In this document: one piece after another, positions 542 to 35,955 of the stretch | How the letters are laid out: every line of letters starts with the position of its first letter | How positions within the stretch are numbered: the stretch's first letter is position 1 | Sequence record: NC_002167.1 | Length of the DNA stretch: 39,732 bases | DNA from: Escherichia phage HK97 | Reading direction: 5' to 3' (one strand) | The notes under the pieces: model-generated | What the model was told of the DNA's origin: nothing | The model's input: only the letters and a program-made list of their open reading frames with translations | The model's database searches: none | Translations under genes and position numbers: made by a program

Positions 542-2056
542 ATGACGCGAGGTGAGCGTGTAATAGCGTTCATTGAGCGCTTTTGCATCGTGCCAGAAGG
601 CAAGCTTATCGGCCAACCTATGCGGTTGGACCCCTTTCAGAAAGATTTCATCCTGGCGGTTTACGACAATCCAGCCGGAACGGATATGGCGATCCTCTCC
701 ATCGCCCGAAAAAATGGTAAGACTGGCCTGATTGCCGGAATTCTGCTGGCTCACCTGGTGGGGCCTGAAGCGGTGCAGAACACGCAGATTGTCAGCGGTG
801 CACTCAGCCGGGAACAGGCGGCCATCGTTTTTAACCTCGCGGTGAAGATGGTTAACCTGAACCCCAAGCTGCAGGAGATTGTGCACATTACGCCCAGCGG
901 CAAAAAGCTGATCGGCCTGCCGTGTAACGTCGAATACAAGGCTTTATCCGCAGAAGGTAAGACGACGCACGGCCTTTCCCCCATTCTGGCCATTCTCGAT
1001 GAAACAGGGCAGGTTAGGGGCCCGCAGGATGATTTTATCGATGCAATAACTACGGCGCAGGGGGCTCATGAAAACCCGCTGCTAATCGTTATCAGTACGC
1101 AGGCAGCAAACGATGCTGACCTGCTTAGCATCTGGATTGATGATGCGGTCAAATCGAAAGATCCGCACATCGTGTGCCACGTTTATGAAGCGCCAAAAGA
1201 CGCTGATATCAGTAAACGCGAGTCCTGGCTGGCTGCGAACCCGGCACTGGGAACATTCAGGTCAGAAAAAGACATGGCGCGCCAGGCTGAGAAAGCTGGC
1301 CGAATGCCAAGCTTCGAAAACACCTTCCGAAACCTCAACCTCAATCAGCGCGTGTCTACCGTATCGCCGTTTATCTCCCGCAGCGTGTGGGAGCTTTGCG
1401 GAGAGATGCCGATTAACACCCCGAGGAAGTGGTACGCGGGGCTGGATCTGTCAGCCAGGAACGACTTAACGGCGCTGGTTATCGCTGGTGAAGCAGATGA
1501 TGGTGTCTGGGATGTTTTCCCCTTCTTCTGGACACCGCAAAAGACTCTTGAAGAGCGAACCAAAACGGACCGAGCACCCTATGACGTTTGGGTGAGGGAG
1601 GGGCTGCTGCGCACCACGCCAGGAGCTTCGGTGGATTACTCATTCGTCGTTGCGGATATCGCTGAAATTATCGGTGATTTCGACCTTACCTCGATGGCTT
1701 TTGACCGCTGGCGCATTGACCAGTTCAGGAAGGATGCCGATGCCATTGGGCTGAGCCTCCCGCTGGTCGAGTTCGGCCAGGGCTTTAAGGATATGGGGCC
1801 AGCTGTAGACACGCTGGAGTCTCTGATGCTTAACGGGCGCGTGAGGCATGGCATGCACCCCGTATTAACGATGTGTGCTGTGAATGCGGTGGTGGTGAAA
1901 GATGCTGCTGGCAACCGCAAGCTCGATAAATCCAAAGCAACGGGCCGTATTGATGGCATGGTCGCAATGACAATGTCCGTTGGTGCTGCTAATGGGGAAG
2001 TTACCGAACAGGGTGGTGACTTCGACGACTTCATTTTCCGACCGCTGAGCATGTGA
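542..2056 (+). CDS. terminase large subunit (ATPase/nuclease)
   Basis: 504-aa ORF 6 nt after TerS; size and position typical of TerL; stop overlaps portal start (TGATG). Confidence 0.85.
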   Translation: MTRGERVIAFIERFCIVPEGKLIGQPMRLDPFQKDFILAVYDNPAGTDMAILSIARKNGKTGLIAGILLAHLVGPEAVQNTQIVSGALSREQAAIVFNLAVKMVNLNPKLQEIVHITPSGKKLIGLPCNVEYKALSAEGKTTHGLSPILAILDETGQVRGPQDDFIDAITTAQGAHENPLLIVISTQAANDADLLSIWIDDAVKSKDPHIVCHVYEAPKDADISKRESWLAANPALGTFRSEKDMARQAEKAGRMPSFENTFRNLNLNQRVSTVSPFISRSVWELCGEMPINTPRKWYAGLDLSARNDLTALVIAGEADDGVWDVFPFFWTPQKTLEERTKTDRAPYDVWVREGLLRTTPGASVDYSFVVADIAEIIGDFDLTSMAFDRWRIDQFRKDADAIGLSLPLVEFGQGFKDMGPAVDTLESLMLNGRVRHGMHPVLTMCAVNAVVVKDAAGNRKLDKSKATGRIDGMVAMTMSVGAANGEVTEQGGDFDDFIFRPLSM

Positions 2057-3330
2057 TGGAAGAACCTAAATACACGATTGACCTGCGAACCAATAACGGC
2101 TGGTGGGCAAGGCTGAAGTCCTGGTTTGTCGGCGGGCGTTTAGTCACCCCAAATCAGGGCTCACAGACGGGGCCTGTTTCGGCCCACGGATACCTGGGCG
2201 ATTCATCCATTAACGATGAACGGATACTGCAAATTTCGACTGTGTGGCGCTGCGTGAGCCTGATTTCAACGCTCACGGCATGCTTACCGCTTGATGTCTT
2301 CGAAACAGACCAGAATGACAACCGTAAAAAAGTGGATTTGAGCAATCCACTGGCGCGACTGCTGCGCTACTCACCGAATCAGTACATGACCGCCCAAGAA
2401 TTCAGGGAGGCCATGACGATGCAGCTCTGTTTCTACGGTAACGCATATGCACTTGTGGACCGCAACAGCGCAGGTGACGTGATCAGCCTTCTCCCGCTTC
2501 AGTCTGCCAATATGGATGTGAAGCTCGTCGGAAAAAAAGTGGTTTATCGCTATCAACGCGACAGCGAATACGCCGACTTTTCGCAGAAAGAGATTTTTCA
2601 CCTTAAAGGCTTCGGATTCACCGGGCTTGTAGGCCTGTCACCCATTGCTTTTGCCTGTAAATCGGCAGGTGTGGCAGTTGCGATGGAGGACCAGCAGCGA
2701 GATTTCTTTGCCAACGGCGCCAAGTCTCCGCAAATCCTCTCAACTGGCGAAAAAGTGCTAACTGAACAGCAGCGCTCCCAGGTCGAAGAGAACTTCAAAG
2801 AGATCGCCGGCGGCCCGGTAAAAAAACGCCTCTGGATTCTGGAAGCGGGTTTTTCTACATCGGCAATTGGCGTAACTCCGCAGGATGCCGAAATGATGGC
2901 GTCCCGAAAATTTCAGGTAAGTGAACTGGCGCGATTCTTTGGCGTACCGCCTCACCTTGTCGGCGACGTCGAGAAATCAACGAGCTGGGGATCGGGCATC
3001 GAGCAGCAGAATCTCGGCTTCCTGCAGTACACGCTGCAGCCCTATATCTCCCGGTGGGAAAACAGTATTCAGCGATGGCTGATCCCATCGAAAGACGTTG
3101 GCCGCCTACATGCTGAGCACAATCTTGATGGTCTCCTGAGGGGCGATTCTGCCTCCCGTGCCGCGTTCATGAAGGCAATGGGAGAGTCCGGCCTGCGTAC
3201 CATCAACGAAATGCGCCGAACAGACAACATGCCGCCATTACCGGGTGGCGATGTAGCGATGCGACAGGCGCAGTATGTGCCAATTACCGACTTAGGAACC
3301 AACAAAGAGCCCCGAAATAACGGGGCTTAA
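2056..3330 (+). CDS. portal protein (HK97-type)
   Basis: 424 aa from ATG at 2056; position between terminase and prohead protease; recalled similarity to HK97-family portal. Confidence 0.85.
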   Translation: MEEPKYTIDLRTNNGWWARLKSWFVGGRLVTPNQGSQTGPVSAHGYLGDSSINDERILQISTVWRCVSLISTLTACLPLDVFETDQNDNRKKVDLSNPLARLLRYSPNQYMTAQEFREAMTMQLCFYGNAYALVDRNSAGDVISLLPLQSANMDVKLVGKKVVYRYQRDSEYADFSQKEIFHLKGFGFTGLVGLSPIAFACKSAGVAVAMEDQQRDFFANGAKSPQILSTGEKVLTEQQRSQVEENFKEIAGGPVKKRLWILEAGFSTSAIGVTPQDAEMMASRKFQVSELARFFGVPPHLVGDVEKSTSWGSGIEQQNLGFLQYTLQPYISRWENSIQRWLIPSKDVGRLHAEHNLDGLLRGDSASRAAFMKAMGESGLRTINEMRRTDNMPPLPGGDVAMRQAQYVPITDLGTNKEPRNNGA

Positions 3331-3335
3331 TTTTT
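3308..3335 (+). terminator. hairpin plus T-run overlapping portal 3' end
   Basis: agccccg-aaataa-cggggct stem-loop followed by TTTTT; overlaps last portal codons and stop. Confidence 0.4.
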
Positions 3336-3347
3336 ATGGGGGCCGTG

Positions 3348-4025
3348 ATGCCTGAAATCGTAAAAACGCTGTCCTTCGACGAGACAGAAATCAAATTCAC
3401 CGGTGACGGGAAGCAGGGGATTTTCGAAGGATATGCCTCTGTTTTTAATAACACCGATTCCGATGGCGACATCATTCTGCCCGGGGCGTTTAAAAACGCG
3501 CTGGCGAACCAGACCCGAAAAGTGGCGATGTTTTTCAACCACAAGACGTGGGAGCTGCCGGTTGGTAAATGGGACAGTCTGGCCGAAGACGAAAAAGGGC
3601 TCTACGTTCGCGGTCAACTTACCCCAGGACACAGCGGCGCCGCCGACCTGAAAGCAGCAATGCAGCACGGCACGGTTGAGGGTATGTCGGTTGGCTTTTC
3701 CGTTGCGAAAGACGATTACACCATCATTCCCACAGGCCGGATTTTTAAGAATATCCAGGCTCTGCGCGAAATCAGCGTCTGCACTTTCCCCGCCAACGAA
3801 CAGGCTGGCATCGCAGCCATGAAAAGTGTCGATGGCATTGAAACGATCCGTGATGTGGAGAACTGGCTGAGGGATTCAGTCGGCCTCACCAAATCACAGG
3901 CAGTTGGGCTAATAGCCCGGTTTAAGTCAGCGATTCGGAGCGAGTCCGAGGGCGACGGAAACGAAGCACAAATAAACGCTCTGCTTCAGAGCATCAAATC
4001 TTTCCCTTCTAACTTAGGTAAATAA
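3348..4025 (+). CDS. prohead maturation protease (HK97 gp4-like)
   Basis: ORF between portal and capsid; start most likely ATG 3348 (G-rich SD upstream), giving about 225 aa; alternative in-frame starts at 3336/3345. Confidence 0.8.
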   Translation: MPEIVKTLSFDETEIKFTGDGKQGIFEGYASVFNNTDSDGDIILPGAFKNALANQTRKVAMFFNHKTWELPVGKWDSLAEDEKGLYVRGQLTPGHSGAADLKAAMQHGTVEGMSVGFSVAKDDYTIIPTGRIFKNIQALREISVCTFPANEQAGIAAMKSVDGIETIRDVENWLRDSVGLTKSQAVGLIARFKSAIRSESEGDGNEAQINALLQSIKSFPSNLGK

Positions 4026-5185: not shown

Positions 5186-5191
5186 TGGAGG

Positions 5192-5213
5192 GGGCGGGGA
5201 AACCCGCCCTTTT
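5192..5213 (+). terminator. GNRA-loop hairpin plus short T-run after capsid gene
   Basis: gggcggg-gaaa-cccgccc followed by TTTT, 7 nt after capsid stop. Confidence 0.45.
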
Positions 5214-6673: not shown

Positions 6674-6692
6674 CAATTAATTCACCCAACGA

Positions 6693-6719
6693 ACCCGCCA
6701 GATGGCGGGTTTTCTTTTT
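6693..6719 (+). terminator. hairpin plus T-run upstream of major tail gene
   Basis: acccgcc-agat-ggcgggt followed by TTTCTTTTT. Confidence 0.5.
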
Positions 6720-8145: not shown

Positions 8146-8202
8146 TTGCTTCACATGCCTTCAATGTAGCGATACGCTCTTTCCTTAAGTAAAGGAGGCG
8201 TT

Positions 8203-8391
8203 ATGGAACCACTGGTAGTAGTGTTTGGAATATTCGGCTGGATGATAAATCTAATTGTGATTTTTTATTTATTACGGTTTAGCACAAGGGCAAATGAACA
8301 AGTTGAAGCCCTTAAAGAGATAAATAAAAAGCAAGATGCGCAAATAGATTTATTAATACAAGTCGCTCACCAAAGAAAAGACAGTTTATAA
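8203..8391 (+). CDS. moron-encoded small membrane protein (candidate superinfection exclusion, HK97 gp15-like)
   Basis: 62-aa ORF, strong SD aaggagg, one N-terminal TM helix; AT-rich compared with flanking tail genes; own terminator downstream. Confidence 0.6.
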   Translation: MEPLVVVFGIFGWMINLIVIFYLLRFSTRANEQVEALKEINKKQDAQIDLLIQVAHQRKDSL

Positions 8392-8397
8392 CTCACG

Positions 8398-8422
8398 ACC
8401 CGCTATCAAGCGGGTTTTTTTT
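8398..8422 (+). terminator. intrinsic terminator after moron
   Basis: acccgc-tatcaa-gcgggt followed by T8. Confidence 0.6.
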
Positions 8423-8434
8423 ATGGGTGAAAAT

Positions 8435-11400
8435 ATGGCTACGTTGCGCGAACTGATCATCAAAATATCTGCAAACTCTCAGTCATTCCAGTCTGAAATT
8501 TCTCGTGCTTCAAGAATGGGGAATGACTATTACCGGGTAATGCAGACTGGAGGACGCCAATCGGCCGCAGCTTCGCGTGAAACTCAGCGTGCCTTGGCTG
8601 AGGTAACTAGTCAAATAAACACCGCGAAGGCCTCAGCACTGGGAATGGCTGGTGCATTTGCTGGAGCATTTGCGACTGGTCATCTTATATCGCTGGCCGA
8701 TGAATGGAGCTCTGTTAATGCCAGGCTAAAGCAGGCTTCCCAGTCGTCAGATGATTTCACGGAGTCCCAGCGGGCGCTGATGGATATTAGCCAGCGAACC
8801 GGAACCGCCTTCTCTGATAATGCGAGTCTTTTTGCGCGTTCAGCCGCTTCTATGCGTGAATATGGCTACAGTTCAGAAGAGGTTCTGAAGGTAACCGAGG
8901 CTATATCAACAGGGCTTAAGCTGTCAGGCGCAAGCGCGTCTGAAGCGAGTTCGGTAATCACGCAGTTCAGCCAGGCTCTGGCGCAGGGTGTTCTTCGAGG
9001 CGAGGAATTTAACTCCGTCAACGAAAACGGTGATCGAGTTATCCGTGCTCTTGCCGCAGGGATGGGTGTAGCTCGTAAAGATCTGAAGGCAATGGCCGAT
9101 CAGGGGATGCTAACCGCAGATAAAGTTGTCCCGGCCCTGATAAGTCAACTTGGCACTATGCGTGGTGAATTTGAGGCAATGCCGCAGACCGTTTCTGCTG
9201 CCACGACGAAAGTCGAAAATGCTTTCATGGCATGGGTAGGTGGCGCTAATGAAGCCACTGGTGCGACAAGTACTCTTGTTGCCGTATTGAATACGGTTTC
9301 TGACAATATAGACACTGTGGCTACGGCTGCCGGAGCTTTGGCTGCGATAGGTGGAGCTCGCTATCTTGGAGGGATGTTTGGCGATCTTGGGAACCAGACG
9401 GCGCAATTAATAGATGCCAGAAAGAACGAAATTGCGCTCGCAGCTGCAAGGGCTGAATCTGCTACCCAATCACAACGCAAGGCCGCCGCCGATGCTATTG
9501 CTGCTGAGCGAGCTTACCAGCTTGCTCAGTCAGAACTTGTGCTGGCAAAGAATACTAATGCTGAGGCTACTGCCACTCAAAATGCCATATCCAAGCGCCG
9601 GGCAATGATTACAGCAAATGCGGCACTGGTACAGTCAAACAGAGCCGTTGCAGCCTCTCAGCAGGCACTTAACTCTGCAACATCAGTGCTGGGGCTTGTA
9701 AAAACTGGCGCTACGGGTCTTTTGTCGTTAGTTGGTGGTTTGCCAGGAATTTTAATGTTGGGTGCTGGGGCGTGGTACACGATGTATCAACGCCAAGAAC
9801 AAGCCAGGGAATCTGCAATCCAATATGCGGACACAATCGAGCAGGTACGAGATAATCTGAAATCAATGTCTCAGACGCAGATATCCGCCAACCTTGGACA
9901 GGCGAATATTTCACTGGATGCTCAGAATAGTGCGATTGAACAGCAGAAGCAGAAAGTTGCTGAATTATCCAATCAACTTTATAACGCAAAATTAGCAGCC
10001 AATTCTGCTTCAGAGGGGACATGGCTGTATAACGATGCGGTTGAGAAAGCCGCAGACTTTGCTTCAGAACTTGCGGTTGAAGAAGGCCGACTTGAGCAAA
10101 TGCTCAATAAAAGAAAGCAAACACAACAGTTAATAAACGACATAACTGATCAGGCTATAAATAAAACAGTAGAAATGGCTGGCGCCGTAAGTTCTCTTAC
10201 AGAGATGTATGACCGGCTGAACAAGGTTTCCAGACAGTCTACAGCAGTGTCCCCACCAAAATATGCAGGACCTGTACTTCCTGCGCTTGATAATAAGCAA
10301 CAACAAGCTATTGAGAAAGCACAGCGACAGCTTGAGCTATCTGGCCTTCAGGGTTTGGATAAGGCTCGAAAGCAGGCAGAATTCGATGCATCTGATCTGA
10401 ACCTTCCAGCTGGTTGGCGTGAGAAATATGTCAGCATGGAAGTTGAGTCTGCTAGGCAATTACAAGCAATTCGTAACTCAAGCCGCCATAAGGGTGGAAA
10501 ATCCGAGGCGGAAAAAACAGCTGATACCTATGACAAGCTGATCAAGCAGCAAAAAGAGCAGATCGCTCTGCAAGGGCAGAATACCGAGCTGGCAAAGGTT
10601 AAATATCAGGTAAGCCAGGGTGAGCTTTCTACGCTAAGTCAGGCCCAGAAAGCCGAAGTTATGCGTAATGCTGCTCTCATCGATCAGGTTAAATTGCGTG
10701 GACAACTGCGAAATTACGAAGCCAACCTTGCTGACAGTAACGCCAGCGCCCGCGCAGCCAATGAAGCGCAACTGCTGGGCTACGGGCAGGGAACCAGGTT
10801 CCGTGAAAGACTTCAGGAGCAGTTCAATCTGCGTAAGGAGTTTGAGCAGAAGAATACCGATCTTCTCCGCCAGCGTCAGGCTGGTGAAATCGACGAGACG
10901 TTCTATCAGCAGGGGCTGGCACTTAATAAGCGCTACCTCGAAGAGCGCCTGCGCGACCAGGAGGGATATTACGCAGCTTCTGATGCGCAGCGTGACGACT
11001 GGATGACGGGACTGTCTGAGGGTTATGCGAACTGGGTGGATGAAGCGACAGATTACTCCTCCATGGCAGCTGACGGGATGAAGCAGGCAATGGGTGGGGC
11101 GGTAACTTCGATTACTGACATGCTCAATGGTAACGTCGACAGCTGGAAGGACTGGGGTGTCAGCGTACTGAAGATCATCCAGAATGTTCTGGTCAATATG
11201 GCTGTTGCTAACGGCGTCAGTTCAATTGGTTCTCTCTTCAGCTTTGGCGCATCTTCCGCCGCTGCCGCCAGTAGCGGTACTGCAATTCAGAACGCTGGCG
11301 CGAACTTCACCTTTAACGCGAAGGGTAATGTTTACGACTCTCCGTCCCTGAGCGCATACAGCAATGGCGTGTTTCAGACCCCTCAGCTTTTTGCTTTTGC

Positions 11401-13559: not shown

Positions 13560-13784
13560 ATGTATACAGTTGGGTTTGGTTGGATCTTCGTCGGTATTTT
13601 TATTGGGTTAATTCTCTGGTTTTTCATCAACCGCGCCAGCGTCAGAGCGAACAGGTAGGTTGAATTACTTGAGTCTATCGACCAGAAATTATCAAAAATA
13701 GTAGATCCAAACTTCGAGGCAAATAACAAAGACCAGTCGAAAGAAAACTACCTTGAAGAAGCAAGGAAAAAAGCTGGGCTTTGA
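13560..13784 (+). pseudogene. paralogue of the 8203-8391 moron ORF interrupted by in-frame amber
   Basis: SD aaggaga then ATG 13560; 32-aa TM peptide (MYTVGFGWIFVGIFIGLILWFF…RANR) stops at TAG 13656-13658; the same frame continues 41 codons to TGA 13782-13784; aligns to the 8203 ORF with TAG opposite its Gln codon. Confidence 0.5.
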
Positions 13785-13798
13785 GAGCGTAAATTAAC

Positions 13799-13822
13799 AA
13801 ACCACCTACGGGTGGTTTTTTT
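13799..13822 (+). terminator. intrinsic terminator after second moron
   Basis: aaccacc-tacg-ggtggtt followed by T7. Confidence 0.6.
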
Positions 13823-13833
13823 ATGGGGGCAGC

Positions 13834-14442
13834 ATGCAAGAGGTAATGACAAGAATTGAGCTAAGTGGCGTGCTAGCTAAGACATATGGAAGGGTTCATC
13901 ACCGTCTGGTTCGCACTACTGCTGAAGCCATTAATGCACTCGCGAAAACCATCAATGGATTCGAGAAATTCTTAAACACAAGCAAAGCCCGAGGGCTGAC
14001 GTATGCCGTTTATAGAGATAAAAAGAATATTGGCGTTGATGATCTCGGCTTTCCCGTCACCGGCGAAGTGATCCGGATTGTCCCTGTAGTAATAGGGAGT
14101 AAAAAGGCTGGTCTTTTGCAGACGATCTTGGGGGCCGTGCTTATTACTGCTGCTGTGTTGACTGGACCCGGCGGTATTGGCGCTGCTTTCGCTGCTGGTG
14201 GATTGACGGGGTTTGCTGCTGCCACTGGTGCCTCGTTGGTCCTCGGTGGGGTTATTCAGCTGCTTTCACCGCAGCCATCAGGCATAGCCAGTAAACAAAG
14301 CGCAGATAACCGTGCATCGTATGCGTTTGGCGGGGTAACCAACACTGCAGCGCAAGGCTACCCGGTGCCTCTGCTTTATGGTAAGCGTCGAATCGGCGGA
14401 GCGATTATTTCTGCCGGAATTTATGTCGAAGATCAACAATAA
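13834..14442 (+). CDS. tail assembly protein I-like
   Basis: 202-aa ORF with Gly/Ala-rich hydrophobic central segment, position between K and J. Confidence 0.7.
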   Translation: MQEVMTRIELSGVLAKTYGRVHHRLVRTTAEAINALAKTINGFEKFLNTSKARGLTYAVYRDKKNIGVDDLGFPVTGEVIRIVPVVIGSKKAGLLQTILGAVLITAAVLTGPGGIGAAFAAGGLTGFAAATGASLVLGGVIQLLSPQPSGIASKQSADNRASYAFGGVTNTAAQGYPVPLLYGKRRIGGAIISAGIYVEDQQ

Positions 14443-14474
14443 ATCATTAATTAGCCGAAAGGCAGGAGAGCGTT

Positions 14475-14837
14475 ATGGAAATGACTGTAGGATTCCCTGA
14501 AATGGGTTCACGATTTGAATATGTAAGCTTCGTTCCTGATTTAGAAATTAAAACAATTAAAACTGTCACAACCAAAATTACAGTTTGCAAGCTGGAACAA
14601 ATCAATGCGCCCCATGAATTGGTGTTTATCTATCAGGAGGATTTCAATCCAAGTAGCTCTTTTGCCGAAGTCGAAGCACGCGCTAAAGAATATGCCAGTA
14701 ATGCAATTGCCGGATTAAAAACCCCGGCTCAACCGGGGCAAAGCATTAACTTTGATGCGATGGTAAATATTATCAGCCCTGGCATACAACCTGGATACCG
14801 CCTCGGCTCGGCCTTGCTCTTGCATCGTCATTTTTGA
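14475..14837 (+). CDS. hypothetical protein (moron between I and J)
   Basis: 120-aa ORF with SD aggaga; 5' two-thirds AT-rich; 3' end overlaps a convergent ORF. Confidence 0.4.
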   Translation: MEMTVGFPEMGSRFEYVSFVPDLEIKTIKTVTTKITVCKLEQINAPHELVFIYQEDFNPSSSFAEVEARAKEYASNAIAGLKTPAQPGQSINFDAMVNIISPGIQPGYRLGSALLLHRHF

Positions 14838-14975
14838 TGTATCTTCACCGTATGCCTTAGTCATATACTGAGTCACGCGCTGGCGGAAAGCTCCAGCATC
14901 ACCAGACTCGACAGTGGCGACGGCTAATAAAAACGCCAACGCTTCATCCTGTTGGTCTTCTTTGTTAAAGCTCAT
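14715..14975 (-). CDS. hypothetical protein (antisense to late operon)
   Basis: 86-aa ORF with SD aggag 7 nt upstream of ATG; minus-strand hairpin plus T-run overlaps its stop codon. Confidence 0.45.
   Translation of the reverse strand: MSFNKEDQQDEALAFLLAVATVESGDAGAFRQRVTQYMTKAYGEDTSKMTMQEQGRAEAVSRLYARADNIYHRIKVNALPRLSRGF
14717..14738 (-). terminator. intrinsic terminator for the minus-strand ORF
   Basis: On minus strand: ccccgg-ttgag-ccgggg followed by TTTTT (plus coordinates 14738 down to 14717). Confidence 0.4.
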
Positions 14976-15106
14976 TATAAACTCCTGTTATACCGAGGTC
15001 ATCAGCCGCACCGTCGGCAATTAGTGCGCCAGTGCCCACCACTGGCGGGCTGAGCTTACACATTAACCAGGGATTCCTGTTACCAACAGCCTGATATTTA
15101 AACAGT

Positions 15107-15129
15107 AGCCACCTTTGGGTGGCTTTTTT
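15107..15129 (+). terminator. intrinsic terminator upstream of J
   Basis: agccacc-ttt-gggtggct followed by T6; about 85% identical to the 13799-13822 terminator. Confidence 0.55.
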
Positions 15130-15140
15130 ATGGACGCGAT

Positions 15141-18100
15141 ATGGCTACAGAGAAAGTATTAAAGGGCCGCAAGGGCGGCAGCTCCAGTTCACGAACTCCT
15201 ACCGAACAACCTGATGATCTGCAATCTGTAGCGAAGGCCAAAATCCTCGTTGCGCTTGGGGAAGGTGAGTTTGCAGGGCAGCTCACCGGCAAAGATATCT
15301 ACCTGGACGGAACAGCGCTGGAGAATGCTGACGGCTCCCAAAACTTCAGCGGGGTAACGTGGGAGTTTCGCGCGGGAACTCAGGCGCAAAAATATATTCA
15401 GGGTATTCCCGGTACCGAAAACGAGATCAGCGTAGGAACTGAGGTATCAAGTGCCACAACCTGGACGCGCACGTTTACCAATACGCAGCTTTCAGCAGTT
15501 CGCCTGCGTCTTAAATGGCCCTCGCTTTTCAAACAGGAGGACGACGGCGATCTGGTGGGTTACTCGGTCAATTATGCAATTGACCTGCAGACGGACGGCG
15601 GCACATGGCAGACGGTACTCAATACCAGCGTGACCGGCAAAACGACGTCTGGTTATGAGCGCAGCCACCGTATCGATTTACCGCAGGCTGGCAGCACATG
15701 GACAATACGTCTGCGTAAGATTACCTCTGACGCCAACAGCGCGAAGATCGGCGACACGATGATGCTGCAGAGCTTCACCGAGGTGATTGATGCCAAACTG
15801 CGCTACCCGAACACCGCGCTGCTCTACGTCGAATTCGACTCAAGCCAGTTCAACGGCTCTATTCCTCAAATTTCATGCGAACCGCGCGGCCGCGTTATCC
15901 GCGTTCCAGATACCTACGACCCTGAAACCCGCACTTATAGCGGTACATGGACCGGTGCGTTTAAGTGGGCATGGACGGATAACCCTGCGTGGATTTTTTA
16001 CGACCTGGTTGTTTCTGACCGGTTCGGCCTTGGGCACCGTTTGACCGCTGCGAATATTGATAAATGGACGCTTTATCAGGTTGCTCAGTATTGTGATCAG
16101 ATGGTACCAGACGGCAAAGGGGGCAACGGTACAGAACCACGTTATACCTGCAACGTGTACATTCAGGACCGGAACGACGCCTACACAGTCCTGCGTGATT
16201 TTGCCGCTATCTTCCGTGGCATGACCTACTGGGGCGGGGATCAGATTGTGGCCCTGGCTGACATGCCGCGCGATGTTGATTACAGCTATACGCGCGCTAA
16301 CGTTGTTGGCGGTCGCTTCACCTATTCGAGCAGCACCACGAAAAGCCGCTACACCACAGCGCTGGTTTCATGGTCAGACCCGGGTAACGCTTATGCCGAC
16401 GCGATGGAACCGGTATTTGAGCAGGCGCTGGTGGCGCGGTACGGCTTCAATCAGCTGGAAATGACAGCCATCGGCTGCACCAGGCAGTCAGAGGCGAACC
16501 GAAAGGGGCGCTGGGGTATTCTCACCAATAACAAGGATCGCGTTGTTTCGTTTGATGTCGGGCTGGACGGAAACATTCCGCAGCCGGGCTACATCATCGC
16601 CGTGGCAGACGAGCTGCTTTCCGGAAAGGTTATGGGCGGCCGCATCAGCGCCGTTAACGGTCGCGTTATCAAACTTGACCGCGTAGCTGATGCAGCACCA
16701 GGTGATCGCCTTATTCTCAACCTGCCTTCCGGAGCGTCGCAGAGCAGGACCATTCAGGCCGTGAACGGGGAATCAGTCACAGTCACCACGGCATACAGTG
16801 AGACGCCACAGGCCGAAGCTGTTTGGGTGGTTGAATCTGACGAGCTTTACGCGCAGCAGTATCGTGTTGTCAGCGTTTCCGATAACAATGATGGCACTTT
16901 CTCGATTACCGGCGCATGGCACGACCCGGATAAATATGCCCGTATCGATACCGGAGCCATCATTGACCAACGGCCGGTGAGCGTGATCCCGCCGGGCAAC
17001 CAGTCGCCGCCTGCGAATATCGTGATCAGCTCGTTTTCCGTGGTTCAGCAAAATATCAGCGTCGAAACAATGCGCGTGAGCTGGGACCAGGCGCAGAACG
17101 CTATCGCCTATGAAGCGCAATGGCGCCGCAACGACGGGAACTGGGTTAACGTGCCGCGCACCTCCACCACGTCATTCGACGTCCCGGGGATTTATGCCGG
17201 GCGCTACCTGGTGCGGGTGCGCGCAATCAATGCCGCAGAAATTTCATCCGGATGGGGCTATTCAGAAGAGAAAACGCTGACGGGTAAAGTGGGCAATCCA
17301 CCGAAGCCGGTTGGCTTTATCGCCTCTGAAAACGTGGTGTTCGGTATCGAGCTGAACTGGGGATTCCCGGCGAATACCGACGACACGCTGAAGACGGAAA
17401 TTCAGTACAGCCTGACCGGTACTGAAGACGATGCCATGCTGCTGGCCGATGTGCCTTACCCGCAGCGCAAATATCAGCAGATGGGCCTTAAGGCTGGGCA
17501 GATTTTCTGGTACCGCGCGCAGCTGGTTGACCGCAGCGGTAACGAGTCAGGTTATACCGGCTGGGTTCGTGGGCAGGCCAGTATCGATGTTTCTGACATC
17601 ACAGATGTGATCCTTGAAGACATCAAAGGGTCTGAGACGTTCAAAGACCTGATCGAGAACGCTGTGGACAGCAATGAAAAAATTGCTGGCATGGCTGACG
17701 ACATCAAACAGGCCAACGATGAACTTGAACTCCAGGCGCAGGAAATCGCAAAAAACGCGCAGGACATCGGGCAGGTTCAGACCAGCGTTAATGAGCTTTC
17801 TAGCACGGTCGGTGATGTGTCGTCTTCTCTCTCAGATCTTGAGCAGACTGTTGCGACTGCTGATACCGCACTGGGCCAGCGAATCGACAGCATCAGCGTG
17901 TCTATGGACGGCATGACGGGCGGGGTGAAGAACTCTGCTATCGCAATTATTCAGGGCAACCTGGCGCAGGTAGCCGCGCGTAAAACGTTGTCTGCATCTG
18001 TAGCAGGGAACAGCGCTCAGCTGGACCGTCTAGACGAGGTGATCGTCAGTGAGAAGGAAGCCACAGCACGTTCATTGCTGAGCCTGCAGACGGACGTCAA

Positions 18101-19031
18101 CGGCAACAAGGCATCCATCAACAGCCTGAATCAGACGCTCTCCGACTATCAGCAGGCCACCGCCACGCAGATAAACGGCATCACGGCGACCGTGAACGGG
18201 CATACCTCCGCCATCACCACTAACGCTCAGGCTATAGCCAACGTTAATGGCGAACTCAGCGCGATGTACAACATCAAGGTTGGTGTCTCCAGCAACGGGC
18301 AGTATTACGCCGCGGGCATGGGGATTGGCGTTGGGAACACGCCGTCAGGCATGCAGTCGCAGGTTATCTTCCTGGCTGACCCGTTCGCCGTCACCACGGC
18401 AGCAGGTAACAGCGTGGCTTTGCCGTTCGTGATCCAGAACGGGCAGACATTCATCCGGGCCAGCTTCATCCAGGACGGCACCATTGAGAACGCCAAAATC
18501 GGCAACTATATCCAGTCCAACAACTATGCAGCTGGTTCTGCTGGTTGGAAGTTGAATAAAGCTGGAGATGCTGAATTCAACAATGTGACCGTCAGAGGTG
18601 TAGTATATGCTAGTGGCGGTAGCTTTACTGGTGAGATCCAAGCAACAAGCGGTAAATTCAAAGGGACTGTGGAAGCCCAAAGTTTTATCGGGGACATTGC
18701 AAATATGCACACCGGAACTAACGTTAGTCGGTCTAGTAACGGTCTTTTAGAAAAGGTAATAACTTATACGGATTCATCCAGTTCTGGGCACGCAAGACAC
18801 GTCTGTGTTATAGCAAACGTGAGAGGGAATGGTGCAGGTACGATAAATATTAACGGATCTGAGGGCTCTTCCAGCGTACAGGATGTAGAACGACTTATTA
18901 TGCATTCTGCTGTTGTAACTGGTCCAAACGTTACGGTAAGAATTACAGTTTCCGCTCAGAACAATAGAGGGGCGTCTATATCCTCACCTACTATTATTGT
19001 TTCGCACGGATCCGGTTCATTCACTGGTTAA
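15141..19031 (+). CDS. J: tail tip / host specificity protein J-like
   Basis: 1296-aa ORF after I; size and position as lambda gpJ; C-terminal about 170 codons are compositionally distinct (AT-rich). Confidence 0.85.
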   Translation: MATEKVLKGRKGGSSSSRTPTEQPDDLQSVAKAKILVALGEGEFAGQLTGKDIYLDGTALENADGSQNFSGVTWEFRAGTQAQKYIQGIPGTENEISVGTEVSSATTWTRTFTNTQLSAVRLRLKWPSLFKQEDDGDLVGYSVNYAIDLQTDGGTWQTVLNTSVTGKTTSGYERSHRIDLPQAGSTWTIRLRKITSDANSAKIGDTMMLQSFTEVIDAKLRYPNTALLYVEFDSSQFNGSIPQISCEPRGRVIRVPDTYDPETRTYSGTWTGAFKWAWTDNPAWIFYDLVVSDRFGLGHRLTAANIDKWTLYQVAQYCDQMVPDGKGGNGTEPRYTCNVYIQDRNDAYTVLRDFAAIFRGMTYWGGDQIVALADMPRDVDYSYTRANVVGGRFTYSSSTTKSRYTTALVSWSDPGNAYADAMEPVFEQALVARYGFNQLEMTAIGCTRQSEANRKGRWGILTNNKDRVVSFDVGLDGNIPQPGYIIAVADELLSGKVMGGRISAVNGRVIKLDRVADAAPGDRLILNLPSGASQSRTIQAVNGESVTVTTAYSETPQAEAVWVVESDELYAQQYRVVSVSDNNDGTFSITGAWHDPDKYARIDTGAIIDQRPVSVIPPGNQSPPANIVISSFSVVQQNISVETMRVSWDQAQNAIAYEAQWRRNDGNWVNVPRTSTTSFDVPGIYAGRYLVRVRAINAAEISSGWGYSEEKTLTGKVGNPPKPVGFIASENVVFGIELNWGFPANTDDTLKTEIQYSLTGTEDDAMLLADVPYPQRKYQQMGLKAGQIFWYRAQLVDRSGNESGYTGWVRGQASIDVSDITDVILEDIKGSETFKDLIENAVDSNEKIAGMADDIKQANDELELQAQEIAKNAQDIGQVQTSVNELSSTVGDVSSSLSDLEQTVATADTALGQRIDSISVSMDGMTGGVKNSAIAIIQGNLAQVAARKTLSASVAGNSAQLDRLDEVIVSEKEATARSLLSLQTDVNGNKASINSLNQTLSDYQQATATQINGITATVNGHTSAITTNAQAIANVNGELSAMYNIKVGVSSNGQYYAAGMGIGVGNTPSGMQSQVIFLADPFAVTTAAGNSVALPFVIQNGQTFIRASFIQDGTIENAKIGNYIQSNNYAAGSAGWKLNKAGDAEFNNVTVRGVVYASGGSFTGEIQATSGKFKGTVEAQSFIGDIANMHTGTNVSRSSNGLLEKVITYTDSSSSGHARHVCVIANVRGNGAGTININGSEGSSSVQDVERLIMHSAVVTGPNVTVRITVSAQNNRGASISSPTIIVSHGSGSFTG

Positions 19032-35014: not shown

Positions 35015-35199
35015 ACGCCACAATTCAAACGATACCAGAACTGCTTATCCAGACACGAGGCAATCAGACCGAAGTGGCGAGGATGCTTTCCTGCGCAAGA
35101 GGAACAGTGCTCAAGTACAACCGAGACAGCAAAGGCGAGCGTCACGTAATAGTTAACGGCGTCCTGATGGTCAAACAGGGCAAGAGGGGAAGACCATGA
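35011..35199 (+). CDS. ninH: NinH-like protein
   Basis: 62-aa ORF …GNQTEVARMLSCARGTVLKY… resembles recalled lambda NinH. Confidence 0.55.
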   Translation: MNATIQTIPELLIQTRGNQTEVARMLSCARGTVLKYNRDSKGERHVIVNGVLMVKQGKRGRP

Positions 35200-35819
35200 G
35201 ACTCGAAAGCGTAGCTAAATTTCACTCGCCAAAAAGCCCGATGATGAGCGACTCACCACGGACCACGGCTTCTGACTCTCTTTCCGGTACTGATGTGATG
35301 GCTGCTATGGGGATGGCGCAATCACAAGCCGGATTCGGAATGGCTGCATTCTGCGGTAAGCATGAACTCAGCCAGAACGACAAACAAAAGGCTATCAACT
35401 ATCTGATGCAATTTGCACACAAGGTATCGGGGAAATACCGTGGTGTGGCAAAGCTCGAAGGAAATACTAAGGCAAAGGTACTGCAAGTGCTCGCAACATT
35501 CGCTTATGCGGATTATTGCCGTAGTGCCGCGACGCCGGGCGCAAGATGCAGAGATTGCCACGGTACAGGCCGTGCGGTTGATATTGCCAAAACAGAGCTG
35601 TGGGGGAGAGTTGTTGAGAAAGAATGCGGAAGATGCAAAGGTGTCGGCTATTCAAGAATGCCAGCAAGCGCCGCATATCGCGCTGTAACGATGCTAATCC
35701 CAAACCTCACCCAACCCACCTGGTCACGCACTGTTAAGCCGCTGTATGACGCTCTGGTGGTGCAATGCCACAAGGAAGAGTCAATTGCAGACAACATTTT
35801 GAACGCGGTCACACGTTAG
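35196..35819 (+). CDS. Q: late gene antiterminator Q
   Basis: 207-aa ORF matching recalled lambda Q (MRLESVAKFHSPKSPMMSDSPR…); Cys cluster CRDCHGTGR. Confidence 0.9.
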   Translation: MRLESVAKFHSPKSPMMSDSPRTTASDSLSGTDVMAAMGMAQSQAGFGMAAFCGKHELSQNDKQKAINYLMQFAHKVSGKYRGVAKLEGNTKAKVLQVLATFAYADYCRSAATPGARCRDCHGTGRAVDIAKTELWGRVVEKECGRCKGVGYSRMPASAAYRAVTMLIPNLTQPTWSRTVKPLYDALVVQCHKEESIADNILNAVTR

Positions 35820-35861
35820 CAGCATGATTGCCACGGATGGCAACATATTAACGGCATGATA

Positions 35862-35896
35862 TTGACTTTTTGAATAAAGTTGGGTAAATTTGACAT
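35862..35896 (+). promoter_or_regulatory. late promoter pR' with qut region
   Basis: -35 TTGACT, 17-bp spacer, -10 TAAATT, immediately downstream of Q. Confidence 0.7.
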
Positions 35897-35928
35897 CAAC
35901 GATGGATAAATGCACTCGTTAAATAAAG

Positions 35929-35955
35929 CCCTGAGTTAATAGCTCGGGGCTTTTT
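35929..35955 (+). terminator. tR'-like intrinsic terminator
   Basis: gccctgag-ttaata-gctcggggc (one G-U pair) followed by T5, about 35-60 nt downstream of pR'. Confidence 0.55.

What the first reader, a model, noticed from the sequence alone, without database searches (positions are those of the whole stretch)
13799..15129. Recurrent hairpin + T-run + ATGG junction modules preceding late genes
Hairpin/T-run elements at 3308-3335, 8398-8422, 13799-13822 and 15107-15129 are each followed immediately by ATGG. The last two are about 85% identical (ccacct..gggtgg.TTTTTTATGG) although they bound different inserts. At 13823 and 15130 the ATG opens a mini-ORF (7 and 10 codons) that overlaps the real start of I and J in another frame. 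This suggests a shared 3' moron boundary (a recombination linker) and possibly translational coupling or re-initiation control of the downstream tail gene. These terminators lie inside an operon that must be read through by Q-modified polymerase.
Basis: seen in the sequence. Interest (0 to 1): 0.45.

Follow-up and report, generated by a model that had tools for sequence, protein, structure and literature searches.

The report
Terminator hairpins abutting late-gene ribosome sites
The four "hairpin + T-run + ATGG" modules in this phage HK97 genome are ordinary, already-annotated transcription terminators that sit directly against the ribosome-binding site of the next late gene; the ATGG is the seam between the two, not a conserved mini-gene.

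Summary
The window is the whole genome of coliphage HK97. Four GC-rich hairpins with T-runs (3307-3335, 8397-8422, 13799-13822, 15107-15129) are each followed by ATGG. TTTTTATGG occurs only at these four sites, against 0.41 expected by chance.

They are Rho-independent-terminator-like elements on the sense strand of the Q-dependent late operon. Sister-phage GenBank records already annotate them as terminators.

The ATGG is the "AU" end of the U-rich tail plus the first two Gs of the Shine-Dalgarno sequence of the real start codon, 11-12 nt downstream. In relatives the hairpin, T-run and Shine-Dalgarno persist while ATG becomes ATT, TAG or CTG, except upstream of J. The mini-ORFs vary in frame and length, so a translational-control role is not supported.

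The "moron 3' boundary" reading is only partly right. The hairpin travels with the downstream gene. It is present in 69 of 78 relatives with no I/J insert and in 23 of 78 with no insert before the tape-measure gene. There is no insert at all at the portal/protease junction.

The I and J hairpins are truly homologous, but I found no sign of ongoing exchange between them.

Ordinary and largely known; low interest. One side observation may deserve follow-up: a conserved structured leader RNA next to the J hairpin.

The parts
3307..3335 (+). Terminator-like hairpin (stem 3307-3314 / 3321-3328, loop AAATAA) and T-run 3331-3335. It lies in the last codons of the portal gene. The portal stop codon TAA 3328-3330 sits between stem and T-run.
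   Evidence: segment folds at -18.6 kcal/mol. Annotated 'stem_loop' in HK97 record U18319 and 'terminator' in HK75. Conserved with changed stem sequences in Klebsiella, Serratia and Pseudomonas phages.
3336..3350 (+). Seam and ribosome-binding site of the prohead protease gene: ATGG 3336-3339, Shine-Dalgarno GGGGG 3338-3342, real start ATG 3348-3350.
   Evidence: Best anti-SD pairing is -8.4 kcal/mol at 3336-3343. Serratia and Pseudomonas relatives have TAGGGGG and CTGGAGG in place of ATGGGGG and keep the ATG-CC(N) (Met-Pro) start. U18319 annotates the start at the position equal to 3348.
8397..8422 (+). Terminator-like hairpin (8397-8416) and 8-T run (8415-8422). It begins 5 nt after the stop codon of the gp15 moron gene.
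   Evidence: Annotated 'terminator' in HK75 at 8398-8422. Among 80 tape-measure relatives, 76 loci carry a hairpin and T-run here, in 15 distinct hairpin sequences.
8423..8437 (+). Seam and ribosome-binding site of the tape-measure gene: ATGG 8423-8426, Shine-Dalgarno GGGTGA 8425-8430, real start ATG 8435-8437 (MATLREL...).
   Evidence: Relatives carry ATTGGGTGA, ATTAGGTGG, ATTTGGTGA or CGTCCGGAG in place of ATGGGTGA. HK542 has 11 nt instead of 12, so its first ATG is out of frame. Distant tape-measure homology starts at 8435.
13799..13822 (+). Terminator-like hairpin (13799-13818, UACG loop) and 7-T run (13816-13822), at the end of the K/I insert.
   Evidence: Annotated 'terminator' in HK75. 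Among 80 gene-I relatives, 75 loci carry a hairpin and T-run, in 21 distinct hairpin sequences.
13823..13836 (+). Seam and ribosome-binding site of tail gene I: ATGG 13823-13826, Shine-Dalgarno GGGGG 13825-13829, real start ATG 13834-13836. The 7-codon mini-ORF 13823-13846 is incidental.
   Evidence: Relatives carry ATGGAG, ATTGGAG, ATTTGGAGG, ATTTAGGAG or ATTCTCGGAG.
15107..15129 (+). Terminator-like hairpin (15107-15124) and 6-T run (15124-15129) immediately upstream of J.
   Evidence: Present in HK75 and in 69 of 78 relatives that have no I/J insert. The compensatory variant CCGCC/GGCGG occurs in L318 and in lambda.
15130..15143 (+). Seam and ribosome-binding site of J: ATGG 15130-15133, weak Shine-Dalgarno GGA 15132-15134, real start ATG 15141-15143. 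The 10-codon mini-ORF 15130-15162 is incidental.
   Evidence: T-run + ATGG is found in 78 of 78 J relatives and as TTTATGGAG in lambda.
8146..8396 (+). Insert between the tail chaperone gene and the tape-measure gene, carrying gp15 (8203-8391, YebO-like).
   Evidence: Pfam PF13974. GC is 0.36. Absent from 23 of 78 relatives. Described as the first moron in PMC3594210.
13513..13798 (+). Insert between K and I, carrying the gp20 open reading frame (13560-13784). In HK97 the frame is interrupted by TAG at 13656-13658.
   Evidence: GC is 0.41. All 76 relatives measured have an insert of 321-1146 nt at this junction.
14443..15106 (.). Insert between I and J: gp22 (14475-14837, +), gp23 (14715-14975, -), a minus-strand terminator (14739-14721), and the minus-strand promoter/leader region 14976-15106.
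   Evidence: GC is 0.45. Absent from 69 of 78 relatives.
5188..5213 (+). Another late-operon terminator-like hairpin, after the major capsid gene. It lacks the TTTTTATGG seam.
   Evidence: segment folds at -21 kcal/mol. Annotated 'terminator' in HK75.
6691..6719 (+). Another late-operon terminator-like hairpin, before the major tail gene. It lacks the TTTTTATGG seam and is followed by CCAGGAGA as Shine-Dalgarno.
   Evidence: Annotated 'terminator' in HK75.
35196..35953 (+). Q antiterminator gene (35196-35819), pR'-like promoter (35862-35890) and tR'-like terminator (35925-35953). Together they would make late transcription terminator-resistant.
   Evidence: Pfam PF03589, E = 9e-58. Promoter and terminator scan. 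HK75 annotates pR' and tR' at the corresponding place.

Best explanation
Each element is a Rho-independent (intrinsic) transcription terminator on the sense strand of the HK97 late operon. It is squeezed into the few bases between the end of the upstream unit and the ribosome-binding site of the next gene (protease, tape measure, I, J).

- **Upstream unit:** This is a gene end or an inserted accessory "moron".
- **The seam:** The U-tract ends in A-U and the Shine-Dalgarno (GGGGG, GGGUGA, GGA) begins at once. The seam therefore reads UUUUU-AU-GG. The real start codon follows 11-12 nt after that A.
- **The ATG and mini-ORFs:** They are by-products of this juxtaposition.
- **Function in a lysogen (inferred from the lambda Q paradigm and the moron model):** Unmodified RNA polymerase coming from moron promoters or from stray read-in stops at the hairpins. 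Accessory genes are thus expressed as short insulated units, and the head and tail genes stay silent.
- **Function after induction (inferred):** Polymerase modified by Q at pR' reads through all of the hairpins.
- **Evolution (shown by comparison):** The terminator is inherited with the downstream gene, and variable DNA is accepted on its 5' side.
For: **Structure**
- Stems of 7-8 bp, 5-8 T, sense orientation, and stable folds for the segments containing them.

**Prior annotation**
- Annotated as 'terminator' or 'stem_loop' by the depositors of HK75 and HK97.

**Structure conserved while sequence changes**
- There are 15 distinct hairpins upstream of the tape-measure gene, 21 upstream of I and 17 upstream of J, nearly all followed by at least 5 T.
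- The portal/protease hairpin is kept with altered stems in Klebsiella, Serratia and Pseudomonas phages.
- CCACC/GGTGG becomes CCGCC/GGCGG in L318 and in lambda.

**The GG of ATGG is the Shine-Dalgarno**
- In 30 of the 31 junction types with an ATG next to the T-run, the best anti-SD pairing overlaps those Gs. Spacing to the real start is mostly 3-7 nt (HK97 itself).

**The ATG is dispensable**
- ATT, TAG or CTG replace it at the tape-measure, I and protease junctions, with the hairpin, T-run and Shine-Dalgarno retained.

**"T-run then AT" is general here**
- TTTTTAT occurs 22 times against 6.9 expected in the window.
- 65 of 127 sampled CCACC..GGTGG hairpins in viral contigs are followed by AT.

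**The hairpin stays without an insert**
- 69 of 78 relatives at I/J and 23 of 78 upstream of the tape-measure gene.

**Q system present**.
Against: - No experimental 3'-end mapping or termination assay was available, so termination itself is inferred.
- Element 1 has TAA between stem and T-run, and element 4 has only 6 T. Their efficiencies may be modest.
- Upstream of J the ATGG is invariant in all 78 relatives and is also present in lambda. The J relatives sampled are 96-99% identical in protein, so this invariance carries little weight either way.
- A conserved terminator at junctions without any moron needs a reason. Insulation against stray transcription is only one candidate.
- Hairpins could also, or instead, protect mRNA 3' ends.
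Confidence: 0.75

Rival explanations
1. The first ATG is a functional start. It would open a regulatory mini-ORF overlapping the starts of I and J, giving translational coupling or occlusion. At the protease and tape-measure genes it would add a 4-residue N-terminal extension.
For: - ATG directly follows the T-run at all four HK97 sites and in all 78 J relatives.
- The first ATG is in frame at the protease and tape-measure genes, and the HK75 record annotates those genes from it.
- The portal stop codon is only 5 nt upstream of ATG 3336, so re-initiation is conceivable.
- The G-rich 3' arm of each hairpin lies 4-9 nt upstream of the first ATG and pairs weakly with the anti-SD, at -5.0 to -6.5 kcal/mol.
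Against: - The ATG is not conserved at three of the four junction families (ATT, TAG, CTG), while the Shine-Dalgarno and the real start are conserved.
- The distance to the real start is 11, 12, 13 or 14 nt, so the frame varies. HK542 has 11 nt where HK97 has 12 at the same gene.
- Mini-ORF lengths range from 2 to more than 10 codons.
- The only SD-like sequence upstream of the first ATG is locked in a hairpin (the segments containing these hairpins fold at -12 to -19 kcal/mol).
- Homology of distant tape-measure and protease genes begins at the second ATG.
Confidence: 0.07
2. The hairpin + T-run + ATGG cassette is a portable recombination joint ("linker"). Near-identical copies at successive tail-gene junctions would provide the crossover points by which morons and tail genes are shuffled.
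For: - The I-upstream and J-upstream elements share exact 27-29-mers (AAGCCACCTTCGGGTGGCTTTTTTTATGG) in 8 of 78 contigs and exact matches of 22 nt or more in 13.
- CCACC..GGTGG hairpins also precede M-like and L-like tail genes.
- One antisense moron family, whose end reads CCTGATATTYARACAGTAG, abuts a hairpin at I/J, H/M and M/L junctions in different phages.
- Homology to the J module starts within about 2 nt of the stem base in every upstream context, and inside the loop in L157.
Against: - The hairpin sequence follows the downstream gene, not the moron. The moron boundary is therefore 5' of the hairpin rather than within it.
- No concerted evolution is seen between the two copies in one genome: 16 of 44 identical against 17.3 expected by random pairing, P = 0.87.
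- The permissive zone between a stop codon and a needed hairpin or ribosome-binding site is only about 20 nt. Selection alone would therefore place every surviving insertion at that spot.
- Hairpins before the tape-measure and protease genes are unrelated in sequence to those before I and J.
Confidence: 0.15
3. The hairpins act mainly as RNA-stability or processing elements within the long late transcript rather than as terminators. They would act as 3'-exonuclease barriers that set the relative abundance of the segments.
For: - Hairpins sit at boundaries between genes needed in very different amounts: after the major capsid gene, before the major tail gene, and before the tape-measure gene.
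- They persist where no moron needs terminating.
- Q-modified polymerase would ignore them as terminators anyway.
Against: - A run of at least 5 T immediately 3' of the stem is kept in nearly every relative. Termination requires this; a simple exonuclease barrier does not.
- All hairpins are in the sense orientation and have canonical terminator geometry.
Confidence: 0.15
4. Chance: any GC hairpin plus T-run next to a gene start looks like this.
For: - G at position +4 and AT after T-runs are both common.
Against: - Four exact TTTTTATGG sites against 0.41 expected, with 0 of 100 shuffles reaching four.
- Fixed 11-12 nt spacing to the start.
- Conservation of the architecture across genera.
Confidence: 0.01

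Closest known systems
Predicted late-operon terminators annotated in HK97-like phages (GenBank HM173637 HK75; JQ086372 HK446 and others) and the 'stem_loop' in HK97 gene 3 (U18319)
   Same: These are the same elements at homologous positions. HK75 annotates terminators at 3310-3335, 8398-8422, 13796-13822 and 14460-14483. U18319 marks the stem-loop at the end of gene 3.
   Different: The annotations do not mention the TTTTTATGG seam. They disagree on which ATG starts the protease and tape-measure genes: HK75 uses the first, U18319 the second.
Moron transcription units (promoter - gene - terminator) of lambdoid phages, e.g. the HK97 gene 15 moron. Sources: Juhala et al. 2000, cited from memory and via PMC3594210; Cumby et al. 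2012.
   Same: Low-GC inserts between late genes. They end at a factor-independent terminator just before the next late gene. gp15 is the founding example.
   Different: At the J and tape-measure junctions the terminator persists in relatives that have no insert. The portal/protease element has no insert at all. The terminator is therefore better described as resident at the junction than as part of the moron. For the antisense gp23 unit, the + strand hairpin cannot be its terminator; that one is at 14739-14721 on the - strand.
Lambda Q-mediated processive antitermination of the late operon (pR', qut, tR'). Textbook knowledge; Q function also described in PMC11364771.
   Same: HK97 has a Q-family protein, a pR'-like promoter and a tR'-like terminator. 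Internal terminators must be read through during lytic growth.
   Different: Nothing here tests read-through. Lambda itself has a hairpin in the I-J gap, but with a broken T-run, TTTTGTCATTT.
Upstream-ORF / translational coupling control of bacterial and phage genes (leader peptides, overlapping ATGA-type coupling). General knowledge.
   Same: A short ORF starts 11 nt upstream of the starts of I and J and overlaps them.
   Different: The upstream ATG, its frame, its length and its stop position are not conserved. No free Shine-Dalgarno precedes it.
Conserved boundary or 'linker' sequences proposed for modular exchange in lambdoid phages (Susskind and Botstein's modular theory; boundary sequences reported for HK620 by Clark et al. 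2001). Cited from memory.
   Same: A short sequence recurs at several module boundaries, and homology breaks coincide with it.
   Different: Here the recurring sequence has an obvious function of its own (terminator plus ribosome-binding site). No statistical sign of exchange between copies was found.

Membership tests
Rho-independent (intrinsic) terminator | GC-rich stem-loop of about 5-10 bp with a short loop | tested here: met
   7-8 bp stems with 4-6 GC pairs and loops of 4-6 nt. The junction segments containing them fold at -12.3 to -18.6 kcal/mol, z = -2.2 to -3.4.
Rho-independent (intrinsic) terminator | U-tract directly 3' of the stem | tested here: met
   8, 7 and 6 T at elements 2-4. 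Element 1 reads TAATTTTT, with the stop codon in between. At least 5 T are kept in 76 of 80 I relatives and 78 of 78 J relatives.
Rho-independent (intrinsic) terminator | Orientation matches the direction of transcription | tested here: met
   All four are on the + strand, the strand of the late genes. The reverse strands have no T-run.
Rho-independent (intrinsic) terminator | Pairing maintained in evolution while the sequence changes | tested here: met
   53 distinct hairpins at three junction families, each forming a hairpin of 4-10 bp (most 6-10). Changed stems at the portal/protease junction in four genera.
Rho-independent (intrinsic) terminator | RNA 3' ends or release of polymerase at the site | not testable with these tools
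   No transcript-end data were found. The Cumby 2012 paper on the gp15 moron is not held in the library.
Moron (autonomous promoter-gene-terminator insert) | Extra DNA absent from close relatives, with deviant base composition | tested here: met
   The I/J insert is absent in 69 of 78 relatives and the insert before the tape-measure gene in 23 of 78. GC is 0.36, 0.41 and 0.45 against 0.51-0.54. There is no insert at the portal/protease junction.
Moron (autonomous promoter-gene-terminator insert) | The terminator belongs to the insert (comes and goes with it) | tested here: not met
   At the J and tape-measure junctions the hairpin, T-run and ribosome-binding site remain when the insert is absent. 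They are identical with and without it: L266 against L272, and HK75 against HK022. The hairpin type follows the downstream gene. At the K/I junction the hairpin type does follow the insert type, so the result is mixed there.
Moron (autonomous promoter-gene-terminator insert) | Own sigma-70 promoter active in the lysogen | tested here: inconclusive
   The consensus scan found no strong promoter upstream of gp15 or gp20, and only weak matches in the I/J insert. gp15 is reported to be expressed from the prophage (PMC3594210).
Regulatory upstream ORF / translational coupling element | Upstream start codon conserved among relatives | tested here: not met
   It is replaced by ATT, TAG or CTG at the tape-measure, I and protease junctions. 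It is conserved only upstream of J.
Regulatory upstream ORF / translational coupling element | Conserved frame, length or stop position relative to the main start | tested here: not met
   The ATG-to-ATG distance is 11, 12, 13 or 14 nt. Mini-ORFs range from 2 to more than 10 codons.
Regulatory upstream ORF / translational coupling element | Accessible ribosome-binding site for the upstream start | tested here: not met
   The only anti-SD complementarity upstream of the first ATG is the 3' arm of the hairpin, which is paired within the stem.
Recombination linker between phage modules | The same sequence at non-homologous junctions | tested here: met
   Exact 27-29-mers occur upstream of both I and J in 8 of 78 contigs. 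HK97 elements 3 and 4 are 85% identical. This does not hold for the protease and tape-measure hairpins.
Recombination linker between phage modules | Evidence of exchange through the sequence (concerted evolution, or breakpoints inside it) | tested here: inconclusive
   No concerted evolution within genomes, P = 0.87. Breakpoints lie at the stem base, and in one case (L157) in the loop. Selection on a 20-nt permissive zone explains this equally well.

The most novel reading that the evidence does not exclude
The late-operon terminators are resident, gene-linked insulators rather than parts of morons, and they determine where accessory DNA can be accepted. Any promoter-bearing insert that lands just 5' of such a hairpin is automatically insulated from the downstream tail gene. 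The near-identical CCACC..GGTGG + T-run + ATGG copies in front of M, L, I and J would then serve as crossover points that move accessory cassettes from one tail-gene junction to another. One such cassette is the antisense unit with the conserved structured leader found next to the J hairpin.
Probability: 0.2. Interest if true: 0.45.

Novelty: already known. Interest (0 to 1): 0.2.

Why it matters
As it stands, the result mainly tidies annotation.

- **Start codons:** The true starts of the HK97 protease, tape-measure, I and J genes are the second ATGs (3348, 8435, 13834, 15141). The upstream ATGs and mini-ORFs should not be annotated as genes.
- **Public records:** Some records that start the protease and tape-measure genes at the first ATG, such as HK75, probably carry four spurious N-terminal residues.
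- **The moron picture:** At several junctions the terminator stays when the moron is absent. Terminators therefore appear to be fixtures of the late operon that make certain junctions safe places for accessory genes. This is a small refinement.
- **If the recombination-joint reading were true:** It would give a concrete mechanism for the old "linker" idea of modular phage evolution. The evidence here does not establish that.

Tried and rejected
- **Rfam:** The gathering search of the whole window gave no family. A relaxed search of 14650-15200 gave only sub-threshold matches to the terminators of unrelated sRNAs. The elements are therefore not known structured RNAs.
- **Solved structures:** I searched the extended protease and tape-measure N-termini to see which start experimenters used. 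There was no HK97 entry for the protease and only distant tape-measure proteins, so this was uninformative.
- **Literature:** The primary gp15 moron paper (PMC3430355) is not held. Searches found the moron commentary and general moron descriptions, but nothing on the TTTTTATGG seam or on terminators resident at insert-free junctions.
- **Hfq-dependent sRNA 3' ends:** I considered whether the hairpins are the 3' ends of sRNAs of the kind described in PMC4104026. I rejected this for the four elements because three follow protein-coding sequence directly. At J, the conserved upstream RNA is on the opposite strand: G-U pairs occur only on the minus strand.
- **HK022 put antiterminator RNA:** I compared the leader next to the J hairpin with putL and putR. 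I saw no resemblance on comparing the printed sequences and folds.
- **Cryptic ribosome-binding site:** I considered whether the G-rich 3' arm plus the U-run forms a ribosome-binding site for the first ATG. I judged this unlikely because the arm is paired and the ATG is not conserved.
- **Uninformative call:** A search for bare TTTTT added nothing.
Full report
**Identity of the window**

The 39,732-base window is the genome of coliphage HK97.
- Bases 3050-3650 are 100% identical to the 1995 HK97 record U18319 (portal, protease and capsid genes).
- The tail region is 94-98% identical to HK022, HK75, HK446, mEp506 and other Hendrixvirinae.
- Pfam confirms the genes around the finding:

| Gene | Coordinates |
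|---|---|
| portal | 2053-3330 |
| S78 prohead protease | from 3348 |
| tape measure | from 8435 |
| lambda-I-like | 13834-14442 |
| J | 15141-19031 |
| gp15 (YebO-like) | 8203-8391 |
| Q-family antiterminator | 35196-35819 |

- The junction segments containing them fold at -12.3 to -18.6 kcal/mol, well below shuffled controls.
- TTTTTATGG occurs exactly four times in the genome, only on the + strand and only at these sites. Chance expectation is 0.41.
- Elements 3 and 4 match at 23 of 27 positions without gaps.
- The two mini-ORFs are 7 and 10 codons long.
- The accepted start codon lies 12, 12, 11 and 11 nt after the first ATG.
- Two other late-operon terminator-like hairpins do not have the seam motif: one after the capsid gene at about 5188-5213, and one before the major tail gene at 6691-6719.

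**They are known predicted terminators**

- The depositors of HK75 annotated "terminator" at 3310-3335, 5192-5213, 6692-6719, 8398-8422, 13796-13822 and 14460-14483.
- Other HK and mEp records do the same.
- U18319 marks a stem-loop at the end of HK97 gene 3.
- The moron concept includes a terminator at the end of the insert, and HK97 gene 15 is its founding case (PMC3594210).

**What the ATGG is**

I collected 80 relatives of each of the four downstream genes from viral contigs, together with more distant phages.

- *Tape-measure gene.*
  - 76 of 80 loci have a hairpin and T-run, in 15 different hairpin sequences.
  - The bases after the T-run read ATGGGTGA, ATTGGGTGA, ATTAGGTGG, ATTTGGTGA, ATTCGGTGA, AATAGGTGA, CGTCCGGAG or GTTTCTGGAG.
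- *Gene I.*
  - There are 21 different hairpins.
  - They are followed by ATGGAG, ATGGGGG, ATTGGAG, ATTTGGAGG, ATTTAGGAG, ATTATTGGAGG or ATTCTCGGAG.
- *Portal/protease junction.*
  - A Klebsiella phage keeps ATGGGGG.
  - A Serratia phage has T-run + AGGGGG.
  - A Pseudomonas phage has T-run + CTGGAGG.
  - Each has a hairpin of altered sequence, the portal stop codon between stem and T-run, and the same Met-Pro start.

The constant parts are therefore the hairpin, the T-run, a Shine-Dalgarno sequence and the real start.
- The G of "ATG" is simply the first G of the Shine-Dalgarno when no spacer separates it from the A-T that ends the U-rich tail.
- Of 56 junction types, 31 have an ATG within 2 nt of the T-run. 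In 30 of those 31 the best pairing to the 16S rRNA 3' end overlaps those Gs. Spacing to the real start is mostly 3-7 nt.
- HK97's own four sites behave the same way.
- "T-run then AT" is a general habit of terminators in this material. TTTTTAT occurs 22 times against 6.9 expected in the window. AT follows the T-run in 65 of 127 sampled CCACC..GGTGG hairpins from unrelated viral contigs.

**The mini-ORF idea**

- The upstream ATG is lost in relatives at three of the four junctions.
- Its distance to the real start is 11, 12, 13 or 14 nt. HK542 has 11 nt where HK97 has 12 at the same gene, which puts it out of frame.
- Mini-ORFs range from two codons (ATG GAG TAA) to more than ten.
- The only Shine-Dalgarno-like sequence upstream of it is the paired 3' arm of the hairpin.
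- Distant homology of the tape-measure and protease genes begins at the second ATG.
- Only upstream of J is ATGG invariant: 78 of 78 relatives, and TTTATGGAG in lambda. There the GG is the only Shine-Dalgarno-like element, and the sampled relatives are very close (96-99% protein identity).
- I therefore regard the mini-ORFs as incidental. A residual possibility remains for J.

**Moron boundary or resident terminator?**

The inserts are real. They are low in GC (0.36, 0.41 and 0.45 against 0.51-0.54) and variably present. The hairpin, however, mostly goes with the downstream gene.
- *I/J.* In 69 of 78 relatives, I and J are 46-56 nt apart, and the hairpin, T-run and ATGG are still there. Nine relatives have inserts of 318-879 nt placed 5' of the same hairpin.
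- *Tape-measure gene.* In 23 of 78 relatives the tail chaperone gene and the tape-measure gene are 45-47 nt apart, with a hairpin and T-run. L272 has a 447-nt insert 5' of the very same hairpin and ribosome-binding site. HK542 also lacks the gp15 insert and keeps the hairpin.
- *Portal/protease.* This hairpin lies within portal coding sequence and has no insert.
- *Lambda.* Lambda has a hairpin in its insert-free I-J gap, with a broken T-run.
- *K/I.* This junction differs. All 76 relatives measured carry an insert of 321-1146 nt, and the hairpin type follows the insert type.
- *An independent test.* The non-coding end of the HK97 I/J insert reads ...CCTGATATTTAAACAGTAG.
  - The degenerate form of this 19-mer (CCTGATATTYARACAGTAG) occurs in at least 119 viral contigs.
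  - It lies in front of J-like, M-like, L-like and other genes.
  - In each case the adjacent hairpin differs, and the hairpin correlates with the downstream gene.
  - The insert's boundary is thus at the base of the stem, not beyond the ATGG.

**Recombination linker?**

- The I-upstream and J-upstream hairpins are homologous. Exact 27-29-mers (AAGCCACCTTCGGGTGGCTTTTTTTATGG) flank gene I in 8 of 78 contigs, and exact matches of 22 nt or more in 13.
- The same hairpin type precedes M- and L-like genes elsewhere.
- The two copies in one genome are no more alike than copies paired at random between genomes: 16 of 44 identical against 17.3 expected, P = 0.87.
- The zone in which an insertion can survive, between a stop codon and a needed hairpin, is only about 20 nt. 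Coincidence of breakpoints with the hairpin is therefore expected from selection alone.
- The hypothesis is neither established nor excluded.

**Most likely mechanism**

- *Shown:* canonical terminator geometry in the sense orientation; evolutionary maintenance of stem pairing and T-run; immediate juxtaposition to the Shine-Dalgarno; a Q gene with a pR'-like promoter (35862-35890) and a tR'-like terminator (35925-35953).
- *Inferred from the lambda Q paradigm and the moron model:*
  - In the prophage, unmodified polymerase from moron promoters or stray read-in stops at these sites.
  - Accessory genes are thereby insulated and the head and tail genes stay silent.
  - After induction, Q-modified polymerase reads through.
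- *Possible additional roles that I could not test:*
  - protection of upstream mRNA segments from 3' exonucleases;
  - enhancement of downstream translation by the U-rich leader (binding of ribosomal protein S1 to U-rich leaders; from memory);
  - at the portal gene, suppression of hairpin formation by ribosomes reading to the stop codon that lies between stem and T-run.

**Verdict**

They are already annotated, and the striking ATGG is explained by terminator-tail plus Shine-Dalgarno. Novelty: already known. Interest: 0.2.

**Seen in passing**

The 131 bases between the gp23 start codon and the J hairpin (14976-15106) form a widespread, conserved, structured leader on the minus strand.
- It precedes about 20 unrelated small accessory genes.
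- It has compensatory changes in its stems, and G-U pairs occur only on the minus strand.
- It matches no Rfam family and is unannotated in RefSeq E. coli genomes.

This may be more interesting than the finding itself.

Noticed in passing
window 14976-15106 (minus strand); also L030, L100, L124, L452-L567: A conserved non-coding cassette lies between the start codon of the antisense gene gp23 and the J hairpin.

- **Distribution:** It also occurs in 152 of 5,426 complete E. coli genomes, where nothing is annotated under the 25 matches listed.
- **Structure on the minus strand:** It folds into a hairpin, CGUCAGUG..CACUGGCG, that is 98.6% paired, with 3 pairs showing compensatory changes. A second hairpin, CAGAGG..CCUCUG, sits just before the Shine-Dalgarno. 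An invariant UCAGCC could pair with GGCUGA in the loop of that second hairpin, which would make a possible pseudoknot.
- **Strand:** G-U pairs appear only on the minus strand, so it looks like a promoter plus structured 5' leader.
- **Cargo:** It precedes about 20 unrelated small ORFs of 25-211 aa, mostly without Pfam matches.
- **Rfam:** No match.

   Followed up: partly
window 13560-13784 (TAG at 13656-13658): The gp20 moron ORF of HK97 carries an in-frame TAG where HK75 has CAG (HK022 annotates a full-length 225-nt gp20 at the same place). It would encode 32 residues instead of 74. It may be a pseudogene, a strain mutation or a read-through case.
   Followed up: no
window 3336/3348 and 8423/8435; HK75 record HM173637 (L006): Public annotations disagree on start codons. 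HK75 starts the protease and tape-measure genes at the ATG that abuts the T-run. U18319 starts HK97 gp4 at the second ATG. Comparative evidence favours the second ATG.
   Followed up: yes
window 3307-3335; L568, L569, L570: The portal stop codon always sits between the terminator stem and the T-run: stem-TAA-TTTTT, stem-TAG-TTTTTT, stem-TAG-TTTTT. This holds in Escherichia, Klebsiella, Serratia and Pseudomonas phages. A ribosome finishing the portal gene must melt the hairpin, which could make termination depend on translation.
   Followed up: partly
window 14475-14975: gp22 (+ strand, 14475-14837) and gp23 (- strand, 14715-14975) overlap convergently by about 120 bp. A minus-strand terminator lies at 14739-14721, inside gp22. 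An antisense accessory gene embedded in the Q-driven operon resembles the "noncontiguous operon" arrangement described for phi80 tai/ati (PMC11364771). Neither protein has a Pfam match.
   Followed up: no
L291 (lambda J02459 15445-15504): Lambda's insert-free I-J gap contains the hairpin AACCGCC-TGCG-GGCGGTT, followed by TTTTGTCATTT, ATGGAGCGTGAGGA and then the J start. It appears homologous to the HK97-type J junction but has an interrupted T-run.
   Followed up: no
L292-L371 (K/I junction of relatives); L008: - Every one of 76 relatives measured has an insert of 321-1146 nt between K and I, in several size classes (about 321, 416, 576 and 777 nt). This junction is a constant accessory-gene slot.
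- A gp20-like 3' end (GAAGAAGCAAGGAAAAAAGCTGG...) occurs instead in front of the tape-measure gene in Klebsiella phage 1 LV-2017. The same small membrane-protein family therefore occupies two different junctions.
   Followed up: partly
window 13811-13825 and 15118-15132: The G-rich 3' arm of the hairpins (GGGUGG) lies 4-7 nt upstream of the first ATG, separated by the U-run, and pairs weakly with the anti-SD at -5.8 to -6.5 kcal/mol. It would form a ribosome-binding site for the first ATG only when the hairpin is melted.
   Followed up: no
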